Below are positions 585 to 46,725 of a stretch of DNA of 64,000 bases, piece after piece (the first letter of the stretch is position 1; the number at the start of each line of letters is the position of its first letter). Under the pieces are notes generated by a model. The model did not search any database. It worked only from the letters and a program-made list of their open reading frames with translations, and was not told the origin of the DNA. The DNA is from an uncultured delta proteobacterium. GTDB taxonomy: Bacteria; Desulfobacterota; Desulfobacteria; Desulfobacterales; JAFDCJ01. The position numbers and the translations under genes are program-made. The DNA lies in the NCBI GenBank assembly GCA_963769935.1, contig CAVYNY010000019.1:79147-143146 (forward strand). Reading direction: 5' to 3'.

Positions 585-2722
585 TTATTGCGTTTTTGAA
601 CGTTTATCAAGGTATTCGATCCGCTCGAGGATTTGGCGTGCCGCTTTATGATCCGGATCCAGGCGCAGTACCTCTGATACATGATATCTGGCCCGCTCAA
701 ACTCGCCCTGGGAAGCCAGAAGAATACTCAATCGTAAATGAGCATTGATATAATTAGGTTTCAGTCGAATTGCTTCCGTATAATGAAGTTCCGCTTCCTT
801 AAATTTCATTTGTTGTAAAAATATGCCGGCCAGGTTGGCGTGGGCCGTGGCTGAGTCAGGCTCCAGGCGCAGCGCCTCGGAAAACTGATGGGCCGCTTCG
901 TCCAGCCGTTTCTGACGTGCGAGCGCAATTCCGAAGTTGGTGTGCGCGCCGGCATAGCCGGGGTTTAGCCGCAGGGCTTCGAGCAAAATGCTGCTCGGCC
1001 TCCTCGAATTCACCTCGACTGCGCCAATTCAATCCCTAAATTATTGTGCGCCTCTGCAAATCCGGGTTCGATCCGCAACGCTTCTCTGTGGTGTTCTATC
1101 GCCTCGAGATGCCGGCCTTGTTCGGCCAGAGCAAGTCCTAAGTTAGTATGAGCGCGCGCATAATTGGGCACCTGTCGCAGTGCTTCAGAATATTGTTGAA
1201 TCCCTTCCTCGAGCTTGCCCTGACGCACCAGCGCATTGGCGAGATTCAAATGCGCTAAGGCCGAGTCGGGTTCGAAACGCAAGGCCTCTTTAAAGAGACG
1301 GATGGCTTCGACATCCTGTCCCTTTTCGGCCAGAGCAAAACCCAGATTGTTGAGGGCCAAAAAACTGTTGGGGTTGATTTGCAGAGCGTGTTCAAAAAAA
1401 GTTTGGGTATCATGCCAGTACGGGACCTGCCGGGAGCTGCACAGCAGAAAAAATCCTAAGACCATTACGCCGCAGATGGCCGCCAGTTTCTTTCTGGGCC
1501 ATGTCAATCCCCAGGCCAATGCGATCGCCGGCCCGATCATAGCAAAATAAACATACCGGTCTGCAACCGTCGAATTGCGCTGAAATTCAAATGAAATGAA
1601 CCCTAACACCGGCAGCAGGCCGAGGACAAAAATTCCTGCCGCCGCCGCAAGCCACGGCAGTCGTTTCCGCTTTAACCAGAGCCATATGGCAACGATATAC
1701 GGCACCGATCCGGTTATAAACAGCCAGCCGTGTCCCATTATATACTGCGGAGTTCGTCCGTAGTCCGGACCCAACCGCAGGGGCAATACCAGCTGGTAAA
1801 GATAAAACGCAACGGCATCGCCCGCAATCAGAGGGCGGGCCCATAGAGGCGGCTTAAAAGCAAGAATCGAACCGGTCTGCACCCAGCGGGTCAGAAGACC
1901 CCATGCCAGTGCAATAATGAACCACACCCACAGACCGGATAGATTCTCACGCCAGGATTGCCGCCAACCCCATGCAGCCAGCAACCAAACCATTACCGGT
2001 ACAACAACGGCGGTCGGTTTTGCCAAAAGCGCCAGAACATATAGTCCGGTGGCGAGCCCGTAATGTAACCCGGGATGCGGCTGATTGCCCGGCAGCGTTT
2101 TGGCATCGATGGACACCAGATACTGCCAGACGGCCGCCAGCGCTAATAAGCCGAACAACACATCCTTTAGGCCGGTAACCCATGCAACGGGTTCAACTTG
2201 AAGGGGGTGGATGGCAAACAGCAAGGCACCGCCGCAGGCCGCCCAGGACAACGGCATTGCGTCGACCTTGTCTGTCGCTTCCGTCTCTATCTGCCTTGTG
2301 CGACTCAACAGCAGCAACAAAATACGCCACAGAACCAGCACACTCAGCACGTGCAGCAAGAGATTAAAGCTGTGAAAAAGCCCCGGATCGGGAACCACTG
2401 CGGCAGCGGAATTCGCTTTTAGCAGCTTGGGCGCCCATGCCAGCGCGGCATAAATCGTATAGAGGAGCGGCGCATAGAGACGTTCGTAAGGATAGCGCCA
2501 GAAGTGCAGCAGGTTGTCAAGGGAGGGTACCTGGAGGTAGGGATTTTTATAAACATTGACACTGTCGTCCCAGGCCAGAAACTGGTGGTGGGATATCGGC
2601 CAGAAGACAACCGTTGGTACTAAAATGAGGATTATGATGGGGATCAGCCGCATCCAGCGGTTGGTGCGATGAATGGGCGGCTGATGATCAGAGTCTGTAA
2701 TCAGGCACCTTTCAGTCATCAC
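585..2722 (-). CDS. TMTC-like GT-C membrane glycosyltransferase with C-terminal TPR repeats (split by indels near 990-1015)
   Basis: WDD motif after TM1; HPLQVEPVAWV, LAKP and ADRYVY motifs; TPRs (NNLG, AHLNLA). ORFs 1010..2722 and 585..1013 join as ...ELAQ-RGEFEEAEQHF-LEAL if two single bases are removed. Confidence 0.8.
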
Positions 2723-3899
2723 CGATTCCTTGATTGCAATTTTTCTCTACCCACCGGCTCAGAAATTTAGCTGCGTTGGCCGCACCATTCAGATCGATCG
2801 GCAGATCTTTTAACGCGGGTTTAATTTGAAGCAGTCTATGCATGTGCTTGCTTAAACGATCGGCGCGCATATCTTCTTCCGTCAATATTCTCATCGGGAA
2901 AAAATCCTTTATTTTTTCTACCCGCATCGGTTGCTCCCGCTGACGCGAGTAAGGATAAACCAACGCCGGCACCTGGCTAACCAGCAAGTTCATACAGGTA
3001 TTGTATCCGGCCAGGCTGACCGACAGATCGGCCGCGTTCAGATAATCCGGAAAGCGCCGGGTAAAACGACGGATGCGGATATCACTCGAGGCGCGGGCGG
3101 CTAATTTATTAAATTCTTCATCTTGCATGAAGGGACCGGCAAAAGCTTCAAGCCGCAGGGACATGCGGTTGCGCAGCAGTTCGCAGGCCGCGATGACACA
3201 ATCTAAAAGCCGGTATCCGGACCGCCCGCCGCCGGCACTCGCCACAACCAGCTTCCGGCCTGCGGCCACCGCCAAAGAATGTCGCAGGCTGCGGCCGGCC
3301 GCCGGGTCTGTCTGCTGGGTGATATACCCCGTGTAAACCACTGGAATGGCGATGTCGTTCACCCTTGAAAAGGTCTCGTCGAGTCGCAGCAGACGCTCGT
3401 CGGAATGAACCAGCAGGACATCATAGTACCGGTTTAACTTTTGGATGACCCTTTCTTCGTAGGCGGCCGGATCTTTCTTTTCTACCAGGATATCCCTCAG
3501 ACTGCAAACGGTTTTGACGGCACCGAAGGTGCCGCTCCGAATATCTGCCAGCACGGGCTCCAGTTCAAAACCAAATAGGGTGCGGCCGAAGGGATGCAAT
3601 TCAACAATGAAAATATCGGGCTGCTTCTCCCTAAACAATTCGGACAGGATATCTTTGCGTGCCTGCTGAATCTCGGCCACACTTTTTGTGGGGTCGCCGG
3701 GAATCAGGGTGGTGAATTTCTCATCCATGTAAAGCACCGGCAGCCTGACAAGCTGGACATGCCGCGGCAAATCCAGGACCACGTCCTGCCCGCCGGCAAC
3801 CAGCGTTACAGCATGCCCCGACAGGGCACGCGCGAATTCGAGGCTGCGCACCAAATGCCCCATCCCCCAGACGTATTGGCAGTAAATGATGATGTTCAT
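2712..3899 (-). CDS. COG4671-type glycosyltransferase (GT28 C-terminal domain)
   Basis: YCQYVWGMGHLVRS N-terminus, SLRDILVEK, SAGGGRSG, SLAGYNT, REQ motifs. Confidence 0.85.
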   Translation of the reverse strand: MNIIIYCQYVWGMGHLVRSLEFARALSGHAVTLVAGGQDVVLDLPRHVQLVRLPVLYMDEKFTTLIPGDPTKSVAEIQQARKDILSELFREKQPDIFIVELHPFGRTLFGFELEPVLADIRSGTFGAVKTVCSLRDILVEKKDPAAYEERVIQKLNRYYDVLLVHSDERLLRLDETFSRVNDIAIPVVYTGYITQQTDPAAGRSLRHSLAVAAGRKLVVASAGGGRSGYRLLDCVIAACELLRNRMSLRLEAFAGPFMQDEEFNKLAARASSDIRIRRFTRRFPDYLNAADLSVSLAGYNTCMNLLVSQVPALVYPYSRQREQPMRVEKIKDFFPMRILTEEDMRADRLSKHMHRLLQIKPALKDLPIDLNGAANAAKFLSRWVEKNCNQGIGDD

Positions 3900-3995
3900 A
3901 ATTAATCCGCCCTGATAAATAGCACATTCAGGGATACAAATTTTTTCTTAATAACAAAAGACTTGAGTCAGGCCGAAGCGCCGGCGGCTTAATTA
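3899..3995. mobile_element. 97-bp inverted-repeat element, copy 1
   Basis: TAATTAATCCGCC ... GGCGGCTTAATTA termini; internal CCCTGA...TCAGGG hairpin; same length as copies at 13410 and 62735. Confidence 0.7.
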
Positions 3996-4133
3996 CTTTA
4001 TGCTGCGCACATTTTTTAAGATTGGACTATTAATCGAAGTTTACTATCACGGTGCTTACAAACAACAAGTATATTTTATACATATACAGTGCACCGCGTA
4101 TTTGACCGAATGCTGTTTCAAAATGGCATTGAT

Positions 4134-4955
4134 TCATGGTGCGTTTAAACAACTAATTGTAGAACTGGTGTATACCAAATCCTTAAAATGAACCAGTTGA
4201 AGCGTGTTATGGGTTTTGAGTACCTTCAAGAGAATATCCAGAAAATCAAATGCGGCTGAATTCATGCGCTGATGATGAATCATAATTCCGCACCAGCCTT
4301 CTGTAATTCCCCGGTGAAGCTCGTTAAACAGGTTATCCCATCCCGCCTGCGGCGAATCCTCCCTGCGGGTATGCAGATCGACATTGACATCAAAGCTCGG
4401 CAAACCCGGCGGGGGCGGCGGCCGGCTGCCGCGGCTGCGGGATACCGCTCGGTACTCCAAGTTTTTCAGCGTCGCCAGAGCTTCCTGCCCGCATCGATTC
4501 CACGGCGGCGTGAAAACCGGATAGAAACTTTTGCCCATCAGGTCCCACAGGCGCTGCCGGCCGCATCGAATATCGCGGGCCAGCGCATCCGGGGTGCGCC
4601 GTGGGCCGAATTCCTGCTTTTTCCCTGCGAGCTCATGATTTACGTGCCGCCATCCGTGTTGGTGCCAGCACCAGAGGCGGGCGCCCTTTTTTCCGATGCC
4701 TTCGATCGCCTGCCAACGGACCGGAGTCAACCAGGCGGGTACGACGGCCAGACAGAGCGGCGCACCGTGTAAAGAAAAAACTTCCAGCAGACGTCTAAAC
4801 CGGCTGCCGGGGGCAGCGATATCGTCGGCCCGGAAAAAGATGAATGCTTCCCCCGGACCTGATGCCTGTTCACAGGCGGCCTCGATACAACTTGCAGTTC
4901 TTGCAACCAGATCTGAAGGAAGACGTTGCCATATGGATGAAACGTATTTTTGCAT
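4134..4955 (-). CDS. polysaccharide deacetylase family protein (NodB-like fold)
   Basis: FFRADD, HQHGWRH, FTPPWNR, IMIHH motifs. Confidence 0.85.
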   Translation of the reverse strand: MQKYVSSIWQRLPSDLVARTASCIEAACEQASGPGEAFIFFRADDIAAPGSRFRRLLEVFSLHGAPLCLAVVPAWLTPVRWQAIEGIGKKGARLWCWHQHGWRHVNHELAGKKQEFGPRRTPDALARDIRCGRQRLWDLMGKSFYPVFTPPWNRCGQEALATLKNLEYRAVSRSRGSRPPPPPGLPSFDVNVDLHTRREDSPQAGWDNLFNELHRGITEGWCGIMIHHQRMNSAAFDFLDILLKVLKTHNTLQLVHFKDLVYTSSTISCLNAP

Positions 4956-5095
4956 AAAATTAGGTCCAGGGTTCTGGGTTCAAAAGGTTCTGGGCCCAGG
5001 GACTTAAAATTTAAGATTGAATATTATGGAATCCTGTCGTTTTTGGCTTCTTTTAAAATTCGGCAATTTAAACAAAATTAAAAAGACGGAACTCC

Positions 5096-6271: not shown

Positions 6272-6275
6272 TGGA

Positions 6276-7696: not shown

Positions 7697-7989
7697 AGTT
7701 CGTTAGGCGGATAAGGGTGCCGAAACGACAATTTGTTTCAAAATTGTCGAGGGCAGTTGCATGTGAAATTTTTAAGGTTTCAGTGTTCAGCCCAGCCGCC
7801 GGCCAAAACAACGGCCGGTTTGATCGAAAATTAAAACTTTTGGAAATCGGACAAAGTTGGATTAAATATCACGCCCACTTCGTTAGAGCTCACAGAAATC
7901 GCAGTCCGCCGGAGGCGGATTTCTTTTGCCGCAGGCAGCTGTAAACCCAGACCTTCGTGATCTCTGAGCGCTCTGTGTGAGATGTGGTT

Positions 7990-9674: not shown

Positions 9675-9967
9675 TTTTTTCGTCCAGCCGCAGGTGGATG
9701 TAGTCGGCAAGCGTGCCAAGGGTGCGAAACACCTGATTGATCCGAGACAATGTGCGCTCATCGGTCAACAAAACGGGCCTGCCAAATTCGGCGGCTGTCT
9801 TTTGTTCCGTCACGGCAATCAGGTTAATCAGTCCCGCTGAATCCAATCGGCCGGAATCACCGGCCAGACGGTGTCTCCAGGTCTTTATCCAGGTGTTCAT
9901 CCGGCGGCCGCAGCTGGTTGAGTTCGTCAATAACACTGAACAGCATTTGCGTAATTTGGGCGTGCAT
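9664..9967 (-). CDS. acyl carrier protein (one frameshift near 9870)
   Basis: MHAQITQMLFSVIDELNQLRPPDEHLDKDLET / LAGDSGRLDSAGLINLIA...TLGTLADYI; LDS phosphopantetheine-serine motif; overlaps the fkbH-like start. Confidence 0.75.
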
Positions 9968-17647: not shown

Positions 17648-18847
17648 ATGAAAATTGATACCCAACGCTTCATCGATCGGTATGTCGGCGCTTTCATCTG
17701 CAGGATTTTTTCACTGTATTACCGGTTCGTCAAAAAAGATGTCGCTGCCGCCGCGCCCCGCAAAATACTCATTATCCTGTTGTCGGAGATGGGGGCCCTG
17801 GTCCTGGCCTATCCCATGTTTCAACGATTGAAAGAGAAATATCCCCAGGCCGAGCTGCACGTGATGCTGTTTGAAAAAAACCGCGAAGTGGTTGAATTGC
17901 TGGGAATTGTTCCTTCGGAAAATATTTTGACGATCGACAATGATTCCATGCAGTCATTGACCCGGGACATGCTGAAGACGATCGCCGACATGCGGAAGAT
18001 CAAACCCGACACCGTCATCGACTGTGAGCTGTTTTCAAGAATCAGCAGCATCCTGTCATATATCAGCGGCGCCGCCGTCCGAGTAGGATTTCATCCCCAC
18101 ACCCAGGAAGGTCTTTACCGCGGTAATTTTATGAACAGACCCGTGCTGTACAATCCCTATCATCATATTGGCCGGCAGTTTTTAACCCTGGTCGAAGCCA
18201 TCGATTCGTCGACCCGCCCGAAAGCCAAACGTGAAATACCGGATGAAAAACTGGAGGTTCCTGCCATTCAGGTCGAACCGCATGAGATTGAAAATGCCAA
18301 GCAACTTCTGTTCGATAGGGCGCCGGAAATCGAAGGAAAAAAAATCGTGCTCATCTATCCCGGCGGTGGTCTGCTGCCGATTCGGGCCTGGCCCCTTGGC
18401 AATTATTGCCGTCTGTCTGAAGAATTGCTTTACCGGGGGTATGCGGTGGGCGTGATCGGCCTGGCAGAGGATAAAAAGATCGCCGCGGAAATCCTGTCCC
18501 ACAACCGGAATCCAAGTTGCGTGGATTTGACCGGCTACACCAAAACCATCCGGGAGCTGATGTTGATATTTCACTTTTCTTCGCTGCTGATCACCAATGA
18601 CGGCGGTCCCGGCCATTTTGCCGCCATGACGCCGATTCCGGCAATTATTTTTTATGGTCCGGAAACTCCGACCCTGTACGGTACCATTGACGATAGTGCT
18701 GTGAACCTTTTTGTGGGCCTGTCATGCTCGCCATGCGTCACCGCCTATAATCACCGCAATTCTCCCTGCGACGGCGACAATATGTGTTTGAAAAAAATTG
18801 ACCCGGACCAGGTATTATCAAGGGCGCTTGAAATATTGGAATCTTAA
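17648..18847 (+). CDS. glycosyltransferase family 9 (heptosyltransferase-like)
   Basis: LSEMGALVL, RAWP, DLTG, ITNDGGPGHFA, FYGPETP, CSPC motifs. Confidence 0.85.
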   Translation: MKIDTQRFIDRYVGAFICRIFSLYYRFVKKDVAAAAPRKILIILLSEMGALVLAYPMFQRLKEKYPQAELHVMLFEKNREVVELLGIVPSENILTIDNDSMQSLTRDMLKTIADMRKIKPDTVIDCELFSRISSILSYISGAAVRVGFHPHTQEGLYRGNFMNRPVLYNPYHHIGRQFLTLVEAIDSSTRPKAKREIPDEKLEVPAIQVEPHEIENAKQLLFDRAPEIEGKKIVLIYPGGGLLPIRAWPLGNYCRLSEELLYRGYAVGVIGLAEDKKIAAEILSHNRNPSCVDLTGYTKTIRELMLIFHFSSLLITNDGGPGHFAAMTPIPAIIFYGPETPTLYGTIDDSAVNLFVGLSCSPCVTAYNHRNSPCDGDNMCLKKIDPDQVLSRALEILES

Positions 18848-20441
18848 TCAAACGTATAAATGCAATCCAGCACCCAAAAAATATCACCGGCAAAATATCA
18901 GAACGCTGTTCTGGATATTTTTAACCTGTATCACCGCCTTTCGTCTTTTGTTGATTGATAAATTCGGACTGGGTGTTGATGAATCCCATTATCTGCTGTA
19001 TTCCCGCCACCTGGCCTGGGGCTATTTCGATCATCCGCCCATGGTGGGCTTTCTGGCGGCGTTGACCGGTCTGCTGGGAGACAGCGTGTTCTTTGTAAGG
19101 CTGGGACCTGTCCTGTGCTCGGTCATCGGTTTGATCCTGCTGAGATACCTGGCGCTGGCCCTTTACCGGGATGAACGGGTAGCCTTCTGGGCCGTGGTTT
19201 TATTACACCTAATGCCCTACCAGCAGCTTCTGCTGGTGGGCCTGCTGCCGGATGCGGTGCTGAATATTTTCTGGTGCGCTACGCTGCTGGCCGTATGGCG
19301 TGCCATGCATACCGGCAAATGGTCGATGTGGCTCCTGGCCGGCCTTTTATTCGGCGGAGCGCTTCTCAGCAAATATCACGCGGTGTTGCTGGCTCTGTGC
19401 CTGCTGGGCTACCTCGTCACCTCACCCGGGCATCGTTTCTGGCTCAAAAAGATTCAACCCTATGCCGCGGCCGTTATCGGCCTGGCGGTCTTTGGGCCGA
19501 ATATAATCTGGAATGCCCGTCATGGCTGGATTTCCTATGCCTATCAATTAGGGCATGGTGCCGGTGACGGGGTTGATCCCGTTAAATTTTTACTTGGCCT
19601 TGCCGGGCAGGCCGGTGCCTGGTCACCGGTCATCTTCGGGCTGCTGATCGCTGTGTTTATTGTGCTTGTCCGTCAAAAAAAAATCAGCGATGCCGACCGC
19701 TTCGCAGTCTGGACCAGCATCCCGATTTTTGTTTTTTTCGGCCTGGCCGGTCTGACCACCACCATTCTGCCGCACTGGACATCGGCGGGGTGGTGGACCG
19801 GCTCGATTGCGGTGGCCGCCGTGATTTCGCAAAAAATATCACTGGCGAACCTTTCCGCCCGCCGCTGGCGGCGCTGGTCGGTGGCAGCCGCACTGACAGG
19901 ATTCATCATGACCACCTGCCTATACCTGGCGCTGTTTCTGCCCATAACCGCTCCGGTCTATACATGGGCCCGCGATGTTTCATTGAACCTGCATCGCATG
20001 CTCCCGGCGCTAAAGCCTCTGAAGCCCTATGAAACCGGCTTTGACCCCGGTAATCAACTCTACGGCTGGCGGGACATTGCCAGCCAGGTGGAAAACATCC
20101 GGGCGCGGATGCCGCACCCGGAGACCACCTTTGTTTTCTGCCATCGTTTTTACACAACCAGCCAGCTGGCCGTCTATCTTCATCCGGATACCGCCGCCAC
20201 CGCCCTTTTCCACCGGTACAGCCAGTATCGCCTCTGGTTTGTTGCTGAAGCATATTCCGGCTGGGACGCCCTGTTCGTGGTGGACCGCAAGCGGCATCAG
20301 GAGCGCGCCCGGCGCTATATGCCCCTGTTCGAGAGGATGGACCCGCAGCCGGAGGAAATTGAAGTTTATCGCAACGGTCGACCGGCGCATGTGCTGGAGG
20401 TTTACAAATACTATGGATTTAAGGGTAAGTATGAAGAGTAA
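18798..20441 (+). CDS. ArnT/PMT_2-like GT-C glycosyltransferase (GT39/83)
   Basis: DESHY...LAWGYFDHPPMV, LPD, LSKY motifs; multi-TM; true start probably about 18860. Confidence 0.85.
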   Translation: MTRTRYYQGRLKYWNLNQTYKCNPAPKKYHRQNIRTLFWIFLTCITAFRLLLIDKFGLGVDESHYLLYSRHLAWGYFDHPPMVGFLAALTGLLGDSVFFVRLGPVLCSVIGLILLRYLALALYRDERVAFWAVVLLHLMPYQQLLLVGLLPDAVLNIFWCATLLAVWRAMHTGKWSMWLLAGLLFGGALLSKYHAVLLALCLLGYLVTSPGHRFWLKKIQPYAAAVIGLAVFGPNIIWNARHGWISYAYQLGHGAGDGVDPVKFLLGLAGQAGAWSPVIFGLLIAVFIVLVRQKKISDADRFAVWTSIPIFVFFGLAGLTTTILPHWTSAGWWTGSIAVAAVISQKISLANLSARRWRRWSVAAALTGFIMTTCLYLALFLPITAPVYTWARDVSLNLHRMLPALKPLKPYETGFDPGNQLYGWRDIASQVENIRARMPHPETTFVFCHRFYTTSQLAVYLHPDTAATALFHRYSQYRLWFVAEAYSGWDALFVVDRKRHQERARRYMPLFERMDPQPEEIEVYRNGRPAHVLEVYKYYGFKGKYEE

Positions 20442-20497: not shown

Positions 20498-22331
20498 TCA
20501 GTTTTGCTTCCCCCCTGCCTCTATCATCATCCTGGCCTTTTCGATGCTTTTCCCGGCCTGCGTATTTCGTGGATCGAGTTGCAGGACTCGTTGCCACTCC
20601 GCAATGGCTTGATTCAGTTTTCCCGCCATCGCGTATGCCATCCCGAGGTTATAATGGGCCATTGGGATTTCGGGATCTAATTCATTGACTTGGACATAGT
20701 GAAGAATCGCCTGGTCCCATCGACCCTGCTTGAGGTAGATAGTGGCAAGGTTGTAATGGGCTCGTAAGGATTTCGGATCAAGCGTGACGGATCGGTTAAA
20801 ATATTCCAGGGCTTTTTCCTGATCTCCCTTCTGATAGTAAACGAGGCCCAGGTTGTAATAACTTTTAGCGTCGCCGGGATAAAGCTTGATCGAAATTTTA
20901 AATTGCGCCGCCGCGTCATCCAGCATTCCGCGTTCCAGATAAGCCATGCCCAGGCCGCCACGCGCCGTGAGACTATTCGGCGAGCTTTTAACTGTTTGCG
21001 ACCACAACACTAGATTGTTCTTCCAATCCGGATTGCGTGCGATGGTGCCGGCCGAATAAAGGCCGACCAGGACCACTATCGGTATCAAAGTTGCCGCATT
21101 CACCGTAGATGGATTTGTAAATCGCCTCTTTGCCGCCGCATGAATCACTGCCGGCACCACCAGGCAAAACCCGATTATCGGCAGGTAAAGGTAGCGCTCG
21201 GCCAGCGGATGATAGATTTCGATCAAATTATAAACCGGGAAAAGGGTAATCAAAAACCACCAGATGCCGAAAAAGATCTCTTTCGAATATCGATAAATCA
21301 AAGAGGCGCTGCCGACCAGAGCGATGAGGACCCCCATGCCGATTAAGTTTTTAACATCAAAAAAGCTGTTCGGATAGGAAAACACATAATCCGCGTTTAA
21401 ATTGACGGGAAAGAGTGTCAGCCGGATGAAGCTTAAGATCAGGCCGGGCAGGTAAATAATCCTTTCAAACAGACTGCCGGCAGACGCTTTAAGCGATTCC
21501 TGGGGGCTATATAAAATGAAAAACCGTAAGCAAAGATAAACCAGGCCGACGGCCATAAATCCGGCATAAAAATATATCCTTTTCCTCAAAACGGCCAACC
21601 GCTGTTTGAAATTCGGCGCACCCCGGCCGGCATCGCTCAGCACCAGGTCATACAGCAAAATTATGGCCGGCAGCGTAATGGCCATCTCCTTGGACAGCAA
21701 TCCGAAAAAGTAAAACAGCAGCGCCGGCAAATAATATCGGATACTGGACAATACGAGGTCGGTTTTAATTCGAATATAAGATAGCAGGGCGAGCAGGAAA
21801 AAAAATGTCGCCAGGAGGTCTTCATTAAAACTAATACAATTTACGGCTTCGGAGAGCGCCGGATGACAGGCAAACAGCAGTCCTGCCGCCAAGGCTCTCA
21901 GGCGGTGCTGCAGGACTGAATGCGCCAGCCGGTATACCAGAATGAGCATTCAGCGTATGCAGGATCAGGCCTGCCAGGTGATAGTAAAACGGATTCAGCC
22001 TCGCGAAAGTATAGATTAAAAAGTAGGATAACGTCGCTACCGGCCGGTAGCTCGCCTCGAGTCCGGCGATTTGAAAATATGAATGGTTAAAAATAGACGT
22101 TAAAAATCTGCCCGGTTGATTGAGGTACTTGTTCTCAACGATCACGCCAAAATCGTCATATACAAATCCATTGGACAAAGAATTATAATAAACAATAAGA
22201 CAAAGAAGCACCAGCAACGCAATCGGGAGCAGTGGATGGGTTGCCAACTTGGCAGCCTCCCGGCCGAAACCTGATTCCTGATGAGAACTGGTTGACTGCT
22301 TTGATTTTTTCCGATGTTTGCCGGATTTCAA
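20498..22331 (-). CDS. TMTC-like GT-C + TPR protein (frameshift near 21950)
   Basis: FVYDD, SYRP, HPALSEAV, SKE, AERYLY; TPRs; GAGGTG Shine-Dalgarno before a TTG start. Confidence 0.8.
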
Positions 22332-22345: not shown

Positions 22346-22978
22346 TCACGTTAAAAATTGATGCCACTTCAGATGATCTGTCTGATGATTCAACCGGGAG
22401 ATAAAAAGCCAGGCGCCCAGGATACCGATCAGCATCCCGGCCGCAACATCTGATGGATAATGCGAGCCGATAAACACGCGGGATACGGCAATCACAAAGG
22501 CATAGATCAGCGGTAAAAAGCGGCAGGCGGAATATTTAGAATTTTTGAGCAGATAATACAGGAATACCCCGGAGACAAACGCATCGGCCGCGTGACCCGA
22601 AGGAAACGAGTTGTAGCGGAAGGCAAACGAAAAGAAGGTAAATTCAGCGCCGTGCCCGGGACGGGCGCGGCCCAGCACAATCTTTAAGATCCTTACCAGT
22701 ACGAAGGCAAAAACAAGCTGAGCTTTGATATAAGCCAGGCAGGTGCCTAAAAGGCCTTGTTTTTTTTTAATTATGGAGTAGACAAACAGCGCAATAAACA
22801 CTGCATAAAACAAAAACAAACCTTTCGTCGTAATCAGGTCGGTAATGTAATAAGTATTCTGATTCAACAAGTCCCGTGCGGCATGCCAGATCCGGGTATC
22901 GAAGAAAAACAGAACCAGAATTGCTGACAGAGAAACAAGCAAAAAGATCAGTAAATATTTTTTGGGTATATTCTTCAA
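22346..22978 (-). CDS. PAP2 family membrane phosphatase
   Basis: KIVLGRARP, SFPSGH, SRVFIGSHYPSDV; likely TTG start at 22978 after GAGG. Confidence 0.9.
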   Translation of the reverse strand: MKNIPKKYLLIFLLVSLSAILVLFFFDTRIWHAARDLLNQNTYYITDLITTKGLFLFYAVFIALFVYSIIKKKQGLLGTCLAYIKAQLVFAFVLVRILKIVLGRARPGHGAEFTFFSFAFRYNSFPSGHAADAFVSGVFLYYLLKNSKYSACRFLPLIYAFVIAVSRVFIGSHYPSDVAAGMLIGILGAWLFISRLNHQTDHLKWHQFLT

Positions 22979-23111
22979 TCTATCCTCGCCCGGCGGGTTT
23001 TCGTATTTCTTATTTTTTAAAGCCCCCCGGTTTCTGACCGGATCGGTGAAACATCTCCGGGTTCTCCACCGGAAAAGGTACAACTTTGAATGGACCATTG
23101 TTCAGGGCGAT

Positions 23112-24911
23112 TTAATTCAATTTCTCAAGTTGCGCCTTTGCTTTTGAGATGTTATCCTGAGCGCTTTTATTGGCAGGATCAATTTTTAGAACCTTTTGCC
23201 ATTCTGATACCGCTTGCTGCAGTTTGCCCTCAATGGCATAAGCAACCCCCAGGTCGTTGTGAGCTTCATAGTCTTCAGGCATTAATTCAATCACTTTTTT
23301 GTATTGACGAATGGCGTCCGCGATCAATCCCTGTTTATGATACAGAATTGCAAGATTATATTGCGCGTCGGCAAATTCCGGATTAATTGCGATCGACCTC
23401 TTATAGTTATCAATCGCGTTCTGAAAATCGCCTTTTTGATCATACAGCGCTCCCAGAATGTAATACGCCCTGAAGTGATTTGGCAATATTCTCACGGCCT
23501 TTTGAAATTCAACGATGGCTTTATCCAGCTGACCCTTTTTATGGTAAGCATGCCCCAGACCGCCATGGGCATTAGCGCTGTTCGGCGACTGCACCACCGT
23601 TTTTGACCACAGGCTGAAATCGTCTTTAAAATCCTTGTTGCGCCTGATGGCAATTGTCGAGTAGGCGGCTGAGACGGCAATGATGACCAGCAGCGTAGCC
23701 ATCCTGACAAAAAGCGTTCGGTTCAGTATATAGTTGAAAATGCGATAAAGAATGATCGGCAGGATCAGACAAAAACCGATAATCGGAATATAGAGGTAGC
23801 GCTCGGCAAGGGGATAGGGAATTTCAATTATATTGTAGACCGGAAAAAGTGCGATCAAAAACCACCAGATGCCAAAAAATATTTCTTTGGAACGTTTATA
23901 GATAAAAAAACTTAAAACGACCAGTCCTGAAATGATAAAAAAACCGATTAAATTTGAAATTTCAAAAAACCCATGTGGATATGAATACACGTAATCGACG
24001 TTTAAATCATATGGTGCAATTGCCAGTTTGAAAAAACTGAAAATGTGATACGGCAGATAGCGCAGTCTTTCAAGCAGACTGCCAAAGTGGTGCTGATTCC
24101 CGTCTGCCGGATTGACGAAGATTGCAAAACGCAGCAGCAGATACAACCCGGCGACCAGCGCATAGCCTGTATAAAAAGACCATCTGATTTTAATGGTGGT
24201 CAAAATATGCTTTACCGACAGCCCCCGTTCCGCAGCCTCTTTGAAAGCCAGATCATAGAGTAAAATTAGGGCCGGCAAAGAGATGGCCATTTCTTTTGAC
24301 AGCAGGCCGCAAAAGAAAAAAAACAGGGATAACAGATGGGCGAAACCGGCGGGTCTTTTATCCACTGCCTTGACGTAAAGGATAAACGCCAAAAGGATGA
24401 AAAAAGCTGCTAAAAGATCCTCGTTGAAGGCGATGCAATCAACGGCCTCGGTCAAAACCGGATGGCAGGCAAATAAGAGGGCGGCCAGCAAGGCTCTGAA
24501 CCGGTCCTTCAGCAGCAAGGAAATCAAAAAGTAGACGAGTATGACATTCAGCGTGTGCAGGACAACACTGGCGAGGTGATAATAAAAGGGGTTCAGCCCC
24601 GCAAATGAATGGATTAAAAAATAAGAAAGCGTCGCAATCGGCCGGTAGCTGGCTTCACCCCCGGCTATTTTAAAATACGAATCATTGAAAAAAGACGGCA
24701 GGCTATTTCTGAAATCATTGATGTGCTTGTTTTCAACTATGACTCCATAATCATCAAAGACAAATCCGTTCGACAGCGAGTTATAGTAAATTGCCGCACT
24801 GATGATTGCAAGTATTGCCGCGCACAGCAGATTGCCGGCGACAACCCTGGATGCGAATCCATGCGGTTGGCGGGCGTTGCCGTTTGGGAAAAATTTTTGT
24901 TTTGAATTCAT
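23112..24911 (-). CDS. TMTC-like GT-C + TPR protein
   Basis: FVFDD, SYRP, HPVLTEAV, SKE, AERYLY; TPRs; close paralog of 20498..22331. Confidence 0.85.
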   Translation of the reverse strand: MNSKQKFFPNGNARQPHGFASRVVAGNLLCAAILAIISAAIYYNSLSNGFVFDDYGVIVENKHINDFRNSLPSFFNDSYFKIAGGEASYRPIATLSYFLIHSFAGLNPFYYHLASVVLHTLNVILVYFLISLLLKDRFRALLAALLFACHPVLTEAVDCIAFNEDLLAAFFILLAFILYVKAVDKRPAGFAHLLSLFFFFCGLLSKEMAISLPALILLYDLAFKEAAERGLSVKHILTTIKIRWSFYTGYALVAGLYLLLRFAIFVNPADGNQHHFGSLLERLRYLPYHIFSFFKLAIAPYDLNVDYVYSYPHGFFEISNLIGFFIISGLVVLSFFIYKRSKEIFFGIWWFLIALFPVYNIIEIPYPLAERYLYIPIIGFCLILPIILYRIFNYILNRTLFVRMATLLVIIAVSAAYSTIAIRRNKDFKDDFSLWSKTVVQSPNSANAHGGLGHAYHKKGQLDKAIVEFQKAVRILPNHFRAYYILGALYDQKGDFQNAIDNYKRSIAINPEFADAQYNLAILYHKQGLIADAIRQYKKVIELMPEDYEAHNDLGVAYAIEGKLQQAVSEWQKVLKIDPANKSAQDNISKAKAQLEKLN

Positions 24912-39387: not shown

Positions 39388-39414
39388 CATAAGCAGCTTA
39401 CAAGAGAGAATCGT

Positions 39415-40449
39415 ATGTCAAGTCTTCGAATCGTCGGACTAATCATCGGAATTGCGGGTCTTATCGCAACCTTTCTGTTTTACCGTGGCCCCAAGTGGAA
39501 TCGGTTCAATTTTGCTTTTTTCTCTTTATTCAACCTTTCACTTATCGCTGTAACGATTAATCCCAATGTCGTCAACTTTCTGCGCGACCTGTTGTCACTG
39601 CAGGAATATCAATACGGCCGGATTCTGGCATTACTGATCATTTCGAACCTGATCCTCGTTTTTTTCTGCTTTTACAGCCTTTCAAAAGTCGAAAGCTTCA
39701 GGCTGCAATTCGATAAACTGGTCCGCAAAATCGGCTCGGGTTATTTAGACGCTGCCTCCGAAAGTATTAAAGCCGTTATGGTATTAATACCTGCATATAA
39801 TGAGTCGGAAAATTTGAAATATTTACTGCCCATAATGCCCGGACCGTATCAACAATAAAGAAGTCGGCGTTCTGGTGGTGGATGACGGCAGTGATGACGA
39901 TACCAAGGAAATTGTTAAAAGCCACGGCCATACGTTGTCTCCAATGTTATCAACCGCGGCGGAGGAGCAGCTCTGCGTCTCGGATATGACATATTGCGGA
40001 ATTCAGAGGCCGATATCTGTATAACCATGGACGCAGATGGGCAGCATCGACCAGAAGAAATTGAAAAACTGGTCTTGCCTATCATAAAAGATGAGTACGA
40101 TATCGTTATCGGCTCGCGAGTCCTGGGAACCAGAGAAAAGGACAGCCCCATCAGGGCAGCGGGTGTTCGTGTCTTTGGAGTGATTATCAGTTCACTGCTG
40201 GGCCAGCGGATATCAGATCCCTCGAGTGGTTTCAGAGCATTTAAAATGGACAAAATAAAGAACATCGATTTGCGTGAGGATCAATACCATACCAGTGAAC
40301 TGGTCATTGAAGCGGTTAAAAAGGGGTTGCGGGTAAAAGAGGTGCCCATCACCATATTGAAAAGAAAATACGGTAAGAGCAAAAAAGGCAAAAATTTGAA
40401 ATACGGCTTTTATTTCGCAAAAACGATTATTAAGGCCTGGTGGAGGTAG
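39415..40449 (+). CDS. DUF2304-like membrane domain fused to DPM1-like GT2 (polyprenol-phosphate sugar synthase), frameshifted near 39845 and 39930
   Basis: 3 TMs then LIPAYNESENL / VVDDGSDD / NRGGGAALR, MDADGQH, IGSR, DPSSGFRA, EVPI. Confidence 0.75.
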
Positions 40450-40522
40450 CCGAATCTCAGCAGAATTATTCCAAGACTTACAAAACCCGAGGTTGCTCTA
40501 CTGAATACTTCTACATAAAAAT

Positions 40523-41549: not shown

Positions 41550-41592
41550 ATGAAATATAGGATATTGAAGGCCTTTTGCTGAGGATCAATTT

Positions 41593-42216
41593 ATGAATGT
41601 AGATTTATCGTACCGGCTGCAAATTTTGTCGGAACGCGTCAAATATAGATGGCGATCTCTGAGGTTTTATACCAGAGACATCCTCATTGGTGATAACTAC
41701 CGGATCGGCGAATATACCTATGGACGACCCAAAGTAATTGCTTTCACGAAAAACACTCGGCTTATCATCGGCAAATTTTGTTCAGTAGCGGCCAATGTAA
41801 AAATAATTCTCGGTGCCGACCATAGATTGGACTGGGTGTCCACCTATCCGTTTCCCGCTCTAGGTAAAATATGGCCCGAGGCGGAGGGCGTAGAGGGACA
41901 TCCTGCCTCAAAGGGCGATGTCGTCATTGGCAACGATGTCTGGATTGCAGAAGGTGCCGTAATCCTTTCCGGGGTAAAAATCGGGGACGGGGCTGTGATC
42001 GGCAGCCAAGCAGTTGTATCAAAGGATGTCGCTCCTTATGCCGTAGTTTCCGGTAATCCGGCCAGGCTTGTTAAAATGCGATTCGATGAGGATACAGTAA
42101 AAATGCTGTTGCAAATTCAATGGTGGAACTGGCCCGTCGAAAAAATAAGACAACATCTGCATTTGATATGCAGTCAGAACCTTGATGAATTCCTGCGCCT
42201 GGCTGAAAAATTATGA
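41593..42216 (+). CDS. CatB/Vat-related hexapeptide O-acetyltransferase
   Basis: IGKFCSVA, STYPF, KGDVVIGNDVWI, GNPAR, WWNWP. Confidence 0.9.
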   Translation: MNVDLSYRLQILSERVKYRWRSLRFYTRDILIGDNYRIGEYTYGRPKVIAFTKNTRLIIGKFCSVAANVKIILGADHRLDWVSTYPFPALGKIWPEAEGVEGHPASKGDVVIGNDVWIAEGAVILSGVKIGDGAVIGSQAVVSKDVAPYAVVSGNPARLVKMRFDEDTVKMLLQIQWWNWPVEKIRQHLHLICSQNLDEFLRLAEKL

Positions 42217-43130
42217 ACGGTGCCGACACTAACCCTTGCCGCCTTTGTGGAGAGAAAAGCCACCAGATCATTCTGGGTGATATTATCACCAGGACCAACG
42301 ATCATTTTGCGTTGAACCAATGCGATAATTGCACTCTGGTAACAACATATCCCATGCCTTCGGATAAATTGCTGCAGCAGTATTATAATCAGAATTACTG
42401 GCAATCCGACCGGCAAAATATTAAACCTTCGCTCAATATTCTATATCAGCTGCGCATGAAGCCTATCGTTTCAGCCATTCGGAAGTATACACACGCTGAA
42501 AGCAAGCTCCTGGATTGGGGTTGCGGTGACGGGTCATTTATAAGACTTCTACGCAAATTTGGATTGCACTGTTTCGGCATCGATGCCTACAAACAGAACC
42601 TGGACGATCCGCAGCTATCATTGACATCGATTGAAAAAGCTGATTTCCCGGATGAGTATTTCGATATTATCACCTGTTTTCATGTTCTGGAGCACCTGGC
42701 TGATCCGCTCACCTCGGTTAAAAACGCATTGAGATTGGTAAAAACCGGCGGAGTGATAATCATCGAGGTCCCCAACCTTGATTCAGTCGGCTTTCGGATA
42801 TTTAAGAACCGCTGGCAGCCCCTGGAGATACCGACCCACTTAAATCATTTCACCCCGACTACCTTGCAACGGGTATTTCAATCTGCCGGAAAGGTAAAAA
42901 TTTTTGAGATAGAATTTTTTTCCCACCGTATTTCTCCCAGTGCCCTGGTGTTATCGGTATTACCTTCTCTTTCTCCCAGAAGCGCGCGCAAGAAATATGA
43001 AGGCCGATACCCCTTATCACATTTAACCTTCTATTTTATGACGCAGTTGCTCGCATATCCATTGGCAGCGGCAGGTTCCTCTCTGGGTCATGGAGAAATC
43101 GTCCGTATGTACGTCAGGAAATCCGGCTGA
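42213..43130 (+). CDS. class I SAM-dependent methyltransferase with N-terminal Zn-binding motif
   Basis: CRLC...CDNC, LDWGCGDG, FHVLEH, EVPN. Confidence 0.88.
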   Translation: MNGADTNPCRLCGEKSHQIILGDIITRTNDHFALNQCDNCTLVTTYPMPSDKLLQQYYNQNYWQSDRQNIKPSLNILYQLRMKPIVSAIRKYTHAESKLLDWGCGDGSFIRLLRKFGLHCFGIDAYKQNLDDPQLSLTSIEKADFPDEYFDIITCFHVLEHLADPLTSVKNALRLVKTGGVIIIEVPNLDSVGFRIFKNRWQPLEIPTHLNHFTPTTLQRVFQSAGKVKIFEIEFFSHRISPSALVLSVLPSLSPRSARKKYEGRYPLSHLTFYFMTQLLAYPLAAAGSSLGHGEIVRMYVRKSG

Positions 43131-44062
43131 TGAAATTAAAATTTTTTCTGCGCATAATCGGACCCATTATTTTTATCATCCTATTTTACGTCTACATTGA
43201 TGTTCATAGGCTGATAGATATTCTTAGGGCTTCGAAATGGGAGTTTTTTATTGCCAGTCTGGCGCTCAACCCGCCCTTGATTTTCATTAGAAGCATCCGC
43301 TGGCAGATCATCTTGTCAAAATACGATATTTTCTATAAAAAATGGCAATGCTATAAAATATATTTTGTGGAAATGGTTGCGATCATGGTGGTTGCTGCGG
43401 TCGGGACTTTTGCCAAAGTAGTATATCTTAAACGGGACGGCCACGGTCTGCTGCAGCCGTTGCTGTCCATATTGGCTGAAAAATATTATGATTATCTGCT
43501 GCCGTTGATATTTGGCGCCATCAGTCTTTTTTTAGTGTGGCTAAGGCCTGATTCCGCTGTGGGATTGATCTTATTTTTATTGCTAACGCTACTGGCGTTT
43601 ATTCCGGCCCGCAAAGCCTGTCTGCTGCTTTCTCCGCGGTTGCTGCCGAGGCGCTTAAACGAGCTGCTTAACAAAAAAGGCTGGCCTATAAATGAACATC
43701 TGACAAAAATACATGATATCTTGAATTTTAAAATGTATATTTTCTCAATCATGGCCTTTGGCCTTTATTTTGTCAGCATATATTGTTTAACGAAGGGACT
43801 GCGCCTGGAACTGAGTTTTTTTCAAGTAGTGCTGATCATGACGATTACTTCACTGATCACGCTGATCCCCATATCTTTTTTAGGAATCGGCACTAGAGAC
43901 GCCGGTTTACTGGCAGTTTTCAGTTTTTTTGGGCGCACCCCGGAACAGGCCGTAGCCTTATCCATGGCACTGCTACTCTTGAGAATTGCGATTGTATTTA
44001 TGGGTTCGATTTTCTGGTTTATCGACCCGCCCCCACTGGCTGAGCTGAGGCAATTAAAATAA
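43130..44062 (+). CDS. UPF0104 / lysylphosphatidylglycerol-synthase-TM flippase-like protein
   Basis: RSIRW, EKYYD, PISFLGIGTRD; multi-TM. Confidence 0.8.
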   Translation: MKLKFFLRIIGPIIFIILFYVYIDVHRLIDILRASKWEFFIASLALNPPLIFIRSIRWQIILSKYDIFYKKWQCYKIYFVEMVAIMVVAAVGTFAKVVYLKRDGHGLLQPLLSILAEKYYDYLLPLIFGAISLFLVWLRPDSAVGLILFLLLTLLAFIPARKACLLLSPRLLPRRLNELLNKKGWPINEHLTKIHDILNFKMYIFSIMAFGLYFVSIYCLTKGLRLELSFFQVVLIMTITSLITLIPISFLGIGTRDAGLLAVFSFFGRTPEQAVALSMALLLLRIAIVFMGSIFWFIDPPPLAELRQLK

Positions 44063-44092
44063 AGCCTATATTGATATAAACAGGTAACATTG

Positions 44093-46725
44093 ATGGCCGT
44101 GAAGAAACAATCCCCCGAGCTTAAAAAGAAACAAATCAAACAGGACGCGCAGGTATCGAAAGAGCGCCCAAAGGCACTTGCAGAGAGCGAACGGGTGTCA
44201 TTTATTAATTTCGACCGGTATCAGGCTCTTCTTCTGGCCTTGTTGATTTTGATGGGCTTCATCGTTTATTCCAATACCTTCCACTCACCTTTTGTCTTTG
44301 ATGATAAAACGGCAATAACAGAGAACCCCTTTATTCGAATGGGGGAGATCAACTCCAGGAGCATAATCGATGCTGCAACGGGATATGGCAAAAACCGCCC
44401 GGTGGCAATGATAAGTTTTGCATTTAACTACTATTTTGACCAGTACAATGTGATTGGATACCACCTGGTCAATATATTTATTCATATCATAAATGGCATT
44501 TTGCTCTTCTTCCTAGTGAAACTAACGCTGACGCTGTCAAATCAGCAGGCAGATACAACCCGCAAATTAAATCCGAGAACGGTTACCAACCTGTCCTTTT
44601 TCACAGCGCTTTTATGGCTCCTAAACCCCGTACAAACCCAGTCTGTTACCTATATCGTTCAACGAATGAACAGCATGGGGGCCATGTTCTATATCCTGGC
44701 ACTATGGTTGTACGCCAAAGGGCGAATTGCGCAGCAAATATCCGGCCAGGATGTTGCGGCTCGGTCAAGATGTTATGTTTGGTGGTTTGCGGGATGCTTT
44801 CTGGCGGGCATTCTGGCGTTTGGCAGTAAAGAAAGTACGGCGTTCCTACCGGTAATTATTTTCCTGTACGAATGGTACTTCTTTCAGGATCTCAGCAAAG
44901 ATTGGCTTAAACGCCGTTTGAAATTGGCACTGGCCCTTACAGTTCTTTTAGTTCTCATTGCCTTGATATATACCGATTTTGACCCGTTTGACTAAATTGA
45001 ATCGACTTAATGATTTTTCGAAAAATGAATTTACGATAGCTCAAAGAGCTTTAACTCAACTGCGGGTGGTTATTTACTATATCAGTTTATTGTTTTATCC
45101 CCATCCGTCCCGGCTGAATCTGGATTACGATTTTCCGCTCTCTTATTCACTGATTAATCCCATCACGACCCTGCCGTCTCTGGTATTAATTCTCGGCCTG
45201 GTCGCACTGGGATTATACCTGGCCAAAAAGCAGCGCTTGATATCATTTTGTATTTTCTGGTTTTTAGGAAACCTGGTGGTTGAATCATCTGTGATTCCTC
45301 TGGCCATTATTTTTGAACACCGGCTGTATATGCCTTCCATGCTGGTCGGCCTGGTGGCCGTCCATTGTGTTTATCGGCACCTCAAGCCGCAATGGTTGAC
45401 CGTTGGTATTTGCGGCAGTTCTGGTTGCAATTTTTTCTTACTGGACGTTTCAAAGAAATGATGTCTGGCGAAACGATGTAACTCTGTGGGCAGATTGTGT
45501 AAAAAAATCCCCCGACAAGGCTCGACCCCATTTAAACCTGGGGGAAGCCCTGCTAAATCAGAAACGGTATGATGAAGCCCTGACCAATCTCCTGAAGGCT
45601 ATCCAAATAGACCCAAATTATGTTGAAGCCCATCTTAATCTGGGGGTCCTCTACGACAAGCAGGGGGAAACGGATAAAGCCATCGAACAATACCATAGGG
45701 CCATTCAGATTGATCCAAATTATGCCAAGGCTTACAACAACCTGGGAGCCGCACTCACAAAGCAGGGTAAACCGGACGAGGCGATATCAAGCCTCCAAAA
45801 AGCCTTGCAGATAGATCCTGATTTTTCTGAAGCGCACATGAACGTGGGAGTCGCACTTGCAGCACAGGATAAAAACGATGCGGCGATCGAACACTTTAAA
45901 AAAGCCCTGCAATTGAACCCGAACCTGGCCAGAGCACAATTTCTGCTGGGAGATGCACTGCTGAAGCGAGGTCAGACCGAACAAGGCATCCATCACATTG
46001 AAATCGCATTGCAAATGGATCCCGATTATGCCGAAGCCCACAATAATCTGGGGGCAGAACTTTTGCGGCAGGGAAAAGTCGATGAAGCCCTGGAGCATTT
46101 CAATGCGGCACTGAAAACTAACCCTGACATAGCGGAAGCCCACAACAATGTGGGGATCATCATGATCCAAAAAGGCAATCTCGACGCGGCGATTTCGCAT
46201 TTTCAGAAGGCGCTGCAAATAGCGCCTGAATTTGAACCGGCAAAGAACAATCTGCAAAAAGCGCTGGCCATCCGGCAAAATAAAATGGGTGCGGAGGCCG
46301 AAAGACTCCTGACGGCCCTGAAAAGCAGCCCGGACGATCCGGTATTGAACTATAGATTGGGCAATTTGTATCTCGGCCAGGGAGAATTAAACAACGCCGT
46401 TCGCCGATTTGAAAAAGCACTGGCACTGCAGCCGAAATTTCCGGAGGCCCAGAACAACCTGGCGCTGGCCTATGCCGCCGGCCGGCAATATGATCGGGCG
46501 CTGGCCGCCTTTAAAAAACTAGTCGAGCTTGATCCGGACAACCCCAGCACCTACTACAACATCGCCGTCTTGCATGCCCTGCAGAACAATGTGGCCGACG
46601 CTATAGTTTGGCTAAAAAAAGCGGTTGACAGAGGCTATCAGAACTGGGAGCTGATAAAAACGGATAAGGATCTGGCAAATATCAGGCAGTCGGAAGATTA
46701 TAAGCAACTGGTAAAAGGGCATTAG
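44093..46725 (+). CDS. TMTC-like GT-C + long TPR array (frameshifts near 44990 and 45410)
   Basis: FVFDD, NRP, NPVQTQSVTYIVQR, SKE, FEHRLYMP; more than 10 TPRs; C-terminal YYNIA...IKTDKDLANIR domain. Confidence 0.8.

What the first reader, a model, noticed from the sequence alone, without database searches (positions are those of the whole stretch)
585..46725. Four bacterial TMTC-like GT-C+TPR proteins: candidate protein O-glycosylation machinery
Seen: 585-2722, 20498-22331, 23112-24911 and 44093-46725 each have a multi-TM domain with a di-acidic motif after TM1 (WDD/YDD/FDD/FDD), an RP/AP motif, H/NP-x-x-x-E/Q-x-V, SKE/AKP and (E/D/H)R(Y/L)xY, followed by TPR arrays of different length. Known: this is the architecture of animal TMTC1-4 protein O-mannosyltransferases, which use lipid-phosphate-sugar donors. 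Inference: the paralogs glycosylate different exported proteins selected by their TPRs. Automated annotation would label them only as TPR proteins.
Basis: partly seen in the sequence, partly recalled or inferred. Interest (0 to 1): 0.7.

Follow-up and report, generated by a model that had tools for sequence, protein, structure and literature searches.

The report
Bacterial TMTC/TfpW-type membrane glycosyltransferase paralogues
Four genes encode membrane proteins with a predicted sugar-transferase fold and repeat tails, three of them interrupted by single-base shifts that are likely assembly errors; they belong to a common bacterial family already noted in print that likely adds sugars to exported proteins such as pilus subunits, as the tested Pseudomonas enzyme TfpW does.

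Summary
The four loci are real: each has a GT-C-type membrane domain and a TPR tail. Only 23112-24911 is intact; the other three carry single-base shifts that related contigs or orthologues lack, so these are probably assembly errors. The predicted 11-helix domain matches only GT-C-fold structures (Z up to 19.3, next fold 4.5). The TMTC motifs are mostly kept; the link to DUF1736 is indirect. The genome holds seven paralogues, and the family occurs in 91 of 121 genomes of the order. Bacterial GT-C+TPR homologues of TMTC are in print (PMC7801869), and P. aeruginosa TfpW is a tested bacterial pilin glycosyltransferase of this architecture. In relatives a family member lies within 1 kb of pilA in 31 of 65 loci (chance about 0.2%), which points to pilins as acceptors; cadherin-like acceptors were not supported. 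The four window genes are not beside pilA, so their sugar and targets stay inferred. This scan noted the family before (172 findings, at least 164 genomes), the pilin link included. Verdict: new members of a known kind, modest interest.

The parts
585..2722 (-). Paralogue A: GT-C domain plus about 6-7 TPRs; two 1-nt shifts between about 977 and 1019 split it into 570 + 142 aa; most divergent copy (16-23% identity to the others), with YAP and AKP in place of YRP and SKE
   Evidence: orthologues have open frames of 698-747 aa in 7 of 18 same-genus genomes searched
20498..22331 (-). Paralogue B: GT-C domain plus about 4 TPRs; one extra base at 21944
   Evidence: base absent in contigs of runs X4 and X5; intact syntenic orthologues in G008 (L021) and G016 (L013)
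23112..24911 (-). Paralogue C: intact 599 aa, 11 predicted TM helices, D53-D54, S88-Y-R-P91, K206-E207, E370-R-Y-L-Y374, 4 TPRs; 54% identical to B in the membrane domain
44090..46725 (+). Paralogue D: GT-C domain plus about 10-11 TPRs and a TPR end-of-group domain; 1-nt shifts near 44990 and 45400-45420
   Evidence: contigs of X1 and X2 spanning the two breaks are each one base shorter (table 8); intact 850-aa syntenic orthologue in G008
39415..40449 (+). GT2 resembling polyprenyl-phosphate-sugar synthases (AglJ/PpgS-like, below the family cut-offs), split in the assembly; candidate donor synthase upstream of D
   Evidence: scan of the intact G008 orthologue; base 39843 absent in X1 and X4
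43130..44062 (+). LPG_synthase_TM (flippase-like) membrane protein directly upstream of D; candidate donor flippase
   Evidence: the gene at the same place in G008 matches TIGR00374 below cut-off
22346..23098 (-). PAP2 phosphatase between C and B; candidate lipid-carrier recycling enzyme, beside B orthologues in G007, G008 and G016
17648..20441 (+). GT9 heptosyltransferase-like gene and an ArnT/PMT_2-type GT-C without TPRs, convergent with B; conserved in G007 and G008

Best explanation
These are inner-membrane proteins with a predicted GT-C glycosyltransferase fold that likely move a single sugar from an undecaprenyl-phosphate carrier onto Ser/Thr residues of exported proteins on the periplasmic face, with pilin-type subunits the likely acceptor class for the family and the targets of these four unlinked copies unidentified. 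Shown: genes, motifs, family membership, gene neighbourhoods. Predicted: fold and topology. Inferred from known GT-C chemistry (PMC7801869, TfpW preprint): a cytoplasmic GT2 loads the sugar on the lipid, a flippase turns it outward, the DD pair in loop 1 activates the acceptor, K206 and R371 hold the lipid phosphate, PAP2 recycles the carrier, and the periplasmic TPR arm holds the protein acceptor. All seven genes are probably intact in the living organism.
For: Fold: the 20 top entries, Z 9.3-19.3, are all GT-C-fold proteins, next row 4.5; the 10 Foldseek hits at E<=0.001 are STT3/AglB/ArnT. Topology: 11 helices in the model, Lys+Arg 17 inside against 2 outside near the membrane (helix limits set by hand from the model). 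Catalytic DD and K kept in all seven paralogues. A profile of 60 DUF1736-bearing homologues matches B, C and D over the whole domain (E 5e-71, 2e-66, 9e-43) and A in part (2e-10); a chordate DUF1736 cluster scores 0.93 by ESM features. Acceptor: of 65 pilA loci from genomes holding the family, 31 have a member within 1 kb and 45 within 6 kb, mostly downstream on the same strand, against about 0.2% and 1.2% by chance; pilA found in 81 of 91 family-positive and 20 of 30 family-negative genomes. pilA-adjacent members fall in or beside all three subfamilies of the window genes. TfpW has the same layout (11 TM, periplasmic DDx and TPR) and O-glycosylates pilin. A synthase-like GT2 lies in 13 of 45 pilA loci with a member and 3 of 35 without.
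Against: None of the seven assembled paralogues lies beside the major pilA, and the clade that is pilA-adjacent in this genus has no member in the assembly. Fold scores tie between protein-acting (AglB, Pmt) and lipid-acting (ArnT) enzymes, and include the non-enzyme PIG-U. B sits with a heptosyltransferase-like and an ArnT-like gene, A with GT28/GT4/deacetylase genes, which fits glycan or lipid acceptors equally. The TfpW motif YX6PFX7P is in 0 of 109 domains. No direct DUF1736 hit in this genome. 20 of the 65 pilA loci have no member within the DNA held. No activity data.
Confidence: 0.5

Rival explanations
1. They are GT-C enzymes for non-protein acceptors: they add side sugars to LPS core/lipid A, a glycolipid or a surface polysaccharide (ArnT- or GtrII-like), and the TPRs bind partner proteins or the polymer.
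For: ArnT ties for best fold match (Z 19.1). B is conserved beside a heptosyltransferase-like gene, an ArnT-like GT-C and PAP2; A lies in a GT28/GT4/deacetylase cluster, and in G044 another family member stands in a similar cluster. None of the four is pilA-linked.
Against: The tested GT-C+TPR enzymes I read about (TMTC, TMEM260, TfpW) act on proteins. The family's strongest neighbour in the order is pilA. No ArnT model is matched by the four; 2 of 33 family domains match it weakly.
Confidence: 0.2
2. The paralogues act in series on the same glycoproteins: one attaches the first sugar and the others extend or branch the chain from different lipid-phosphate-sugars, rather than each choosing its own protein.
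For: TfpW both attaches and polymerises D-Araf. Arrays of two or three divergent members follow a single pilA in several relatives. The subfamilies differ at predicted substrate-contact positions (RP/AP, KE/KP, ER/EH), and the genome has four synthase-like GT2s.
Against: The window genes are dispersed and patchily present in the genus; all keep TPR arms of different length, as would suit different protein partners.
Confidence: 0.2
3. They are true functional equivalents of animal TMTCs, putting single mannoses on cadherin-like or Ig-like domains of large surface proteins.
For: SYRP, KE and AERxLY motifs of B and C match TMTC motifs M2, M4, M7; indirect DUF1736 link; the genome has Big_9 repeats at three loci.
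Against: No PF00028 cadherin in this genome. Big_9 does not track the family: 51 of 91 positive against 14 of 30 negative genomes, p=0.40, and copy-rich genomes G043, G044, G006, G012 have no Big_9 match. The HK of SHKSYRP, proposed to contact mannose, is absent.
Confidence: 0.07
4. A, B and D are decaying pseudogenes and only C is active.
Against: Every break is a single extra base; related contigs lack it at B and are one base shorter across both D breaks; orthologues are intact; unrelated genes show the same defect (16388, 16835, 18898, 39843) and 6 of 44 genes tested genome-wide are shifted.
Confidence: 0.03

Closest known systems
TfpW of Pseudomonas aeruginosa group IV / P. paraeruginosa (Pa5196, PA7), pilin D-arabinofuranosyltransferase
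   Same: As described in bioRxiv 10.1101/2020.04.19.049825: about 650 aa, 11 predicted TMs, cytoplasmic N-terminus, essential DDx in periplasmic loop 1, periplasmic C-terminal TPR domain, ArnT as best template; gene directly downstream of pilA, as for many relatives of the window genes.
   Different: The four window genes are not beside pilA; YX6PFX7P is absent (a [YF]x6P core is in 92 of 109 domains); no DprE1-type domain found in this genome, so the sugar is probably not D-Araf; seven copies instead of one. Sequence homology to TfpW could not be tested.
Animal TMTC1-4 (CAZy GT105, Pfam PF08409), ER protein O-mannosyltransferases of cadherins
   Same: 11-TM GT-C domain plus C-terminal TPRs; DD, (SY)RP, HP..E, KE and ERxxY motifs; indirect profile link through DUF1736-positive bacterial homologues.
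   Different: No direct PF08409 hit; SHK of motif M2 missing; A and D deviate at M2, M4 or M7; no cadherin domain found; bacterial inner membrane, so the carrier would be undecaprenol; donor sugar unknown.
Prokaryotic TMTC-like proteins noted by Eisenhaber et al. 2021 (PMC7801869), example from a deltaproteobacterium
   Same: Full-length sugar transferase followed by TPRs in uncharacterised prokaryotes: the same family description and the same broad taxon.
   Different: In the parts I read, that paper gives no neighbourhood, acceptor or link to pilins or TfpW.
ArnT (GT83), AglB/PglB/STT3 (GT66), Pmt (GT39)
   Same: Shared GT-C fold, Z 17-19, acidic pair in loop 1.
   Different: 10-13% identity, no TPR arm; no STT3/PglB gene found in this genome.

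Membership tests
GT-C superfamily | Conserved multi-TM GT-C fold | tested here: met
   Model pLDDT 91; top 20 entries all GT-C-fold, Z 9.3-19.3 against 4.5; Foldseek. Modelled for C only.
GT-C superfamily | Acidic DD/DE motif in the first external loop | tested here: met
   DD after TM1 in all seven paralogues and 108 of 109 domains.
TMTC / GT105 | 11 TMs, N-in, DD and C-terminal TPRs on the outer side | tested here: met
   Prediction only: helix count, positive-inside 17 against 2, TPR hits.
TMTC / GT105 | Motif M2 SHKSYRP | tested here: inconclusive
   EASYRP in B and C, NRP in D, YAP in A; HK absent.
TMTC / GT105 | Motifs M4 KE and M7 ERxxY | tested here: met
   KE in B, C, D and KP in A; ERYLY in B and C, DRYVY in A, EHRLY variant in D.
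TMTC / GT105 | Direct match to Pfam DUF1736 (PF08409) | tested here: not met
   No hit on the four or anywhere in the genome over cut-off; 1 of 33 aligned homologues passes it and a second matches weakly; indirect link.
TMTC / GT105 | Cadherin-domain acceptors | tested here: not met
   PF00028 not found in this 97% complete genome; Big_9 not associated with the family. PF17803 and other cadherin-like models were not searched.
TMTC / GT105 | Lipid-phosphate-mannose donor and O-mannosyl transfer | not testable with these tools
   Needs biochemistry; four synthase-like GT2s of unknown sugar are present.
TfpW-type pilin glycosyltransferases | 11 TMs, periplasmic DDx and C-terminal TPR domain | tested here: met
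   against the description.
TfpW-type pilin glycosyltransferases | Gene directly downstream of pilA | tested here: not met
   Not for the four window genes; this genome's pilA runs off the end of contig C3. Met by relatives in 31 of 65 loci.
TfpW-type pilin glycosyltransferases | Proline-rich motif YX6PFX7P in loop 4 | tested here: not met
   0 of 109 domains; Yx6Px7P in 44 and [YF]x6P in 92.
TfpW-type pilin glycosyltransferases | D-Araf donor pathway (DprE1/DprE2) | tested here: not met
   PF04030, which I recall as part of DprE1, not found in the genome; it rings in the C. glutamicum control.
TfpW-type pilin glycosyltransferases | Sequence homology to TfpW | not testable with these tools
   No TfpW sequence could be obtained from the tools or papers held.
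ArnT / GT83 | Match to the ArnT family model | tested here: not met
   No match for the four; weak match in 2 of 33 homologues.

The most novel reading that the evidence does not exclude
The TMTC family and Pseudomonas TfpW are one lineage of protein O-glycosyltransferases whose bacterial role is to coat surface filaments. In this order of sulfate reducers the enzymes are swapped in cassettes behind pilA and, in some families, beside tandem secreted DUF6160 proteins, giving a variable sugar coat that may block pilus-specific phages; dispersed copies such as the four here would have been recruited to further exported proteins, a bacterial forerunner of the animal TMTC1-4 division of labour.
Probability: 0.35. 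Interest if true: 0.55.

Novelty: new member of a known kind. Interest (0 to 1): 0.3.

Why it matters
The window adds nothing categorically new: the architecture is in print, common in the order and has a tested bacterial precedent. What remains useful is a testable acceptor. The strong pilA linkage makes pilin the first substrate to try for an untested family that is often annotated only as 'TPR protein', and would tie an animal disease-gene family to bacterial pilus glycosylation, which protects P. aeruginosa from phages (bioRxiv 10.1101/150227). Two searches for a printed link found none in the library held: TfpW with TMTC gave 0 papers, and the Desulfobacter/TPR/mannosyltransferase search listed no paper on such a system.

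Tried and rejected
PDB sequence searches with the membrane domain, single and as profile, found nothing significant. Foldseek with the full-length model returned only TPR proteins; the membrane domain had to be folded alone. No TMTC or TMEM260 structure appeared among the fold matches, which excludes nothing. Direct DUF1736 search of the genome was negative. Cadherin-like acceptors: rejected as main explanation. D-Araf donor: not supported. N-glycosylation partner STT3/PglB: not found. DUF6160 proteins as acceptors in this genome: not found. Pseudogene reading: rejected. No family-size count from the 50% representative library was obtained and no direct alignment to TfpW or an animal TMTC was made, so the tree has neither. 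Kus 2008, Harvey 2011 and Voisin 2007 were not available to read. No complex prediction was run.
Full report
Setting. The window is part of contig C19 of an 8.0-Mb, 41-contig genome, 96.7% complete. Names on the closest homologues (Desulfobacterales bacterium, Olavius Delta 1 symbiont) suggest a Desulfobacterales-type sulfate reducer; this is inferred.

Observation. I call the four loci A (585-2722), B (20498-22331), C (23112-24911) and D (44090-46725). Each has a hydrophobic domain of about 410 residues and TPRs: about 6-7 in A, 4 in B and C, 10-11 in D (Pfam stretches; a rough profile gave 6, 4, 3 and 10). Only C is an open frame. A has two shifts, B one and D two.

The breaks are probably assembly errors. 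Contigs of runs X4 and X5 lack base 21944 in B. Contigs of X1 and X2 that span the two D breaks each carry one gap and are one base shorter (table 8). Other genes show the same single extra base (16388, 16835, 18898, 39843). Orthologues are intact: A has open frames of 698-747 aa in 7 of 18 same-genus genomes; B and D are whole and syntenic in G008. Of 44 genes of this genome compared with relatives, 6 were shifted, 10 shifts in 60 kb; that method did not count D.

Fold and topology. AlphaFold2 models of C (pLDDT 90.2) and of its membrane domain (91.0) show 11 membrane helices with long loops after TM1 and TM7. Against 48,161 chains the 20 best entries are all GT-C-fold proteins: AglB Z 19.3 (rmsd 4.6, 325 aligned), Pmt2 19.3 (4.5, 333), ArnT 19.1 (4.7, 334), Pmt4 19.1 (4.1, 329); the next row is 4.5. 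Foldseek agrees. The tie includes lipid-acting enzymes and the non-enzyme PIG-U, so the fold does not name the acceptor. Lys+Arg near the membrane count 17 on the N-terminal side and 2 on the other, which puts DD and the TPRs in the periplasm (prediction, helix limits set by hand).

Relation to TMTC. Eisenhaber et al. (PMC7801869; I read passages, sections 6 and 8 and part 1 of 2 of section 7) define DD, SHKSYRP, KET(Q)xxT, DW and ERxxY motifs. B and C keep DD, SYRP, KE and AERYLY; A and D deviate. Pfam DUF1736 does not hit this genome. It hits homologue L027 over cut-off and 60 of that protein's 120 listed relatives, counted by eye; a profile of those 60 matches B, C and D end to end and A in part. 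A chordate DUF1736 cluster ranks about 20th of 30 at score 0.93 in both ESM look-ups. So these are TMTC-like by descent, shown indirectly; no animal sequence was aligned.

Distribution. The genome has seven paralogues. In a tree of 109 domains (FastTree, midpoint root, domains under 340 profile positions left out, no outgroup) A, B/C and D fall in three separate subfamilies, 16-26% identical to each other. They are old, scattered paralogues, not one locus.

Acceptor. Cadherin-like targets were not supported: no PF00028, and Big_9 occurs in 51 of 91 family-positive and 14 of 30 family-negative genomes, p=0.40 (ten of the negative handles were inferred from the numbering). Listing neighbours showed instead a pilR-pilA-enzyme layout in four relatives. 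A pilin profile from those four found 101 of 121 genomes. I fetched the best locus of 80 of them, leaving out 3 seed genomes, this genome and 17 weaker hits. Of the 65 in family-positive genomes, 31 have a member within 1 kb, 40 within 3 kb and 45 within 6 kb, mostly downstream on the same strand; these counts include one fragmented and one contig-cut gene; 20 have none, several on short contigs. Chance is about 0.2% and 1.2%. pilA is found in 81 of 91 positive and 20 of 30 negative genomes (p=0.009). Pilins with a neighbour are slightly richer in Ser+Thr (22.6%, n=44, against 20.4%, n=31; p=0.02) and a synthase-like GT2 lies in 13 of 45 such loci against 3 of 35. Kin are not independent and the seed pilins bias the ranking, so the p-values overstate. 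Against this reading: in this genome pilA follows pilR and runs off the end of C3, none of the seven paralogues is beside it, and neither the pilA-adjacent clade of the genus nor two GT-C genes that follow pilA in G006 are in the assembly. One paralogue outside the window lies about 7 kb from other pilin-like genes.

Donor. D is preceded by a GT2 whose intact G008 orthologue resembles AglJ/PpgS lipid-phosphate-sugar synthases below cut-off, and by a flippase-like gene; B and C flank a PAP2 phosphatase. Four such GT2s are in the genome. PF04030 was not found, so D-Araf is unlikely. The sugar is unknown.

What is known. The Discussion of PMC7801869 states that full-length sugar transferase plus TPR homologues occur in many uncharacterised prokaryotes and gives a deltaproteobacterial example. 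A passage in bioRxiv 10.1101/2023.08.23.554508 says GT105 occurs to a limited degree in prokaryotes. TfpW (bioRxiv 10.1101/2020.04.19.049825; passages and parts 1-2 of 4; tables are images and its supplements closed) has 11 TMs, a required DDx, a periplasmic TPR domain, lies behind pilA and glycosylates pilin Ser/Thr. Passages of PMC10580974 describe cable-bacterium pilA clusters with TPR proteins and sugar-modifying enzymes without calling the TPR proteins transferases. Passages of bioRxiv 10.1101/150227 report that pilin glycosylation blocks phages. I also saw passages of PMC10214176, PMC11292533, PMC6801728, PMC12369383 and PMC11841053. A search for TfpW with TMTC gave 0 papers. This scan holds 172 earlier findings on the family in at least 164 genomes and several on the pilin link; these are unchecked notes and are not counted as support.

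Verdict. Works like TfpW and TMTC: likely. Member of GT-C: met by prediction. Member of TMTC/GT105 in the strict sense: homologous, but DUF1736 and cadherin tests are not met. Member of the TfpW family: not filed, since pilA adjacency, the proline motif and the donor pathway are not met and homology was untestable. New members of a known kind; interest 0.3.

Noticed in passing
L023:1138-11500 (G023), L123-L124 (G076), L125 (G127): Arrays of three or four family members that are not beside pilA lie next to tandem small secreted-looking DUF6160 genes (Ser+Thr 15-21% in L123-L125). DUF6160 is in 15 of 121 genomes, 14 of them family-positive. A possible second acceptor class; not found in this genome; one paper in the library mentions the domain (listing only).
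   Followed up: partly
G000:C3:1-2339: pilR followed by the major pilA, which is cut by the contig end; the variable block that follows pilA in relatives is not in the assembly.
   Followed up: partly
window 16000-25200 and 39300-46900: Many single extra bases that related contigs lack (16388, 16516-8, 16835, 18898, 21944, 39843); several genes are split (6276-7696, 16171-17382, 39415-40449). Split genes in this assembly should not be read as pseudogenes.
   Followed up: yes
window 18798-20441, 37786-39387, 48884-50566, 54102-55535: Four further PMT_2/ArnT-type GT-C genes without TPRs; with the four studied, eight GT-C genes in 64 kb, beside two PAP2 and two DedA/VTT genes.
   Followed up: no
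window 2712-17382: Cluster of GT28-like, GT4, histidine phosphatase, deacetylase-like, FkbH and MaoC-SDR genes next to A; in G044 (L128) a different family member stands at the matching place.
   Followed up: partly
G043 (L122): A 2.1-Mb single-contig genome with 14 family matches, none within 6 kb of its best pilin hit and no Big_9 match; acceptor unexplained.
   Followed up: no
L024:8405-9586, L026:9272-10453, L036:9768-10943: A VKOR-DsbA fusion gene recurs inside the pilA-enzyme cassettes of three relatives (Pfam scan of the L024 copy).
   Followed up: no
window 30892-31608: PIN / Phd-YefM type II toxin-antitoxin pair beside mutL.
   Followed up: no
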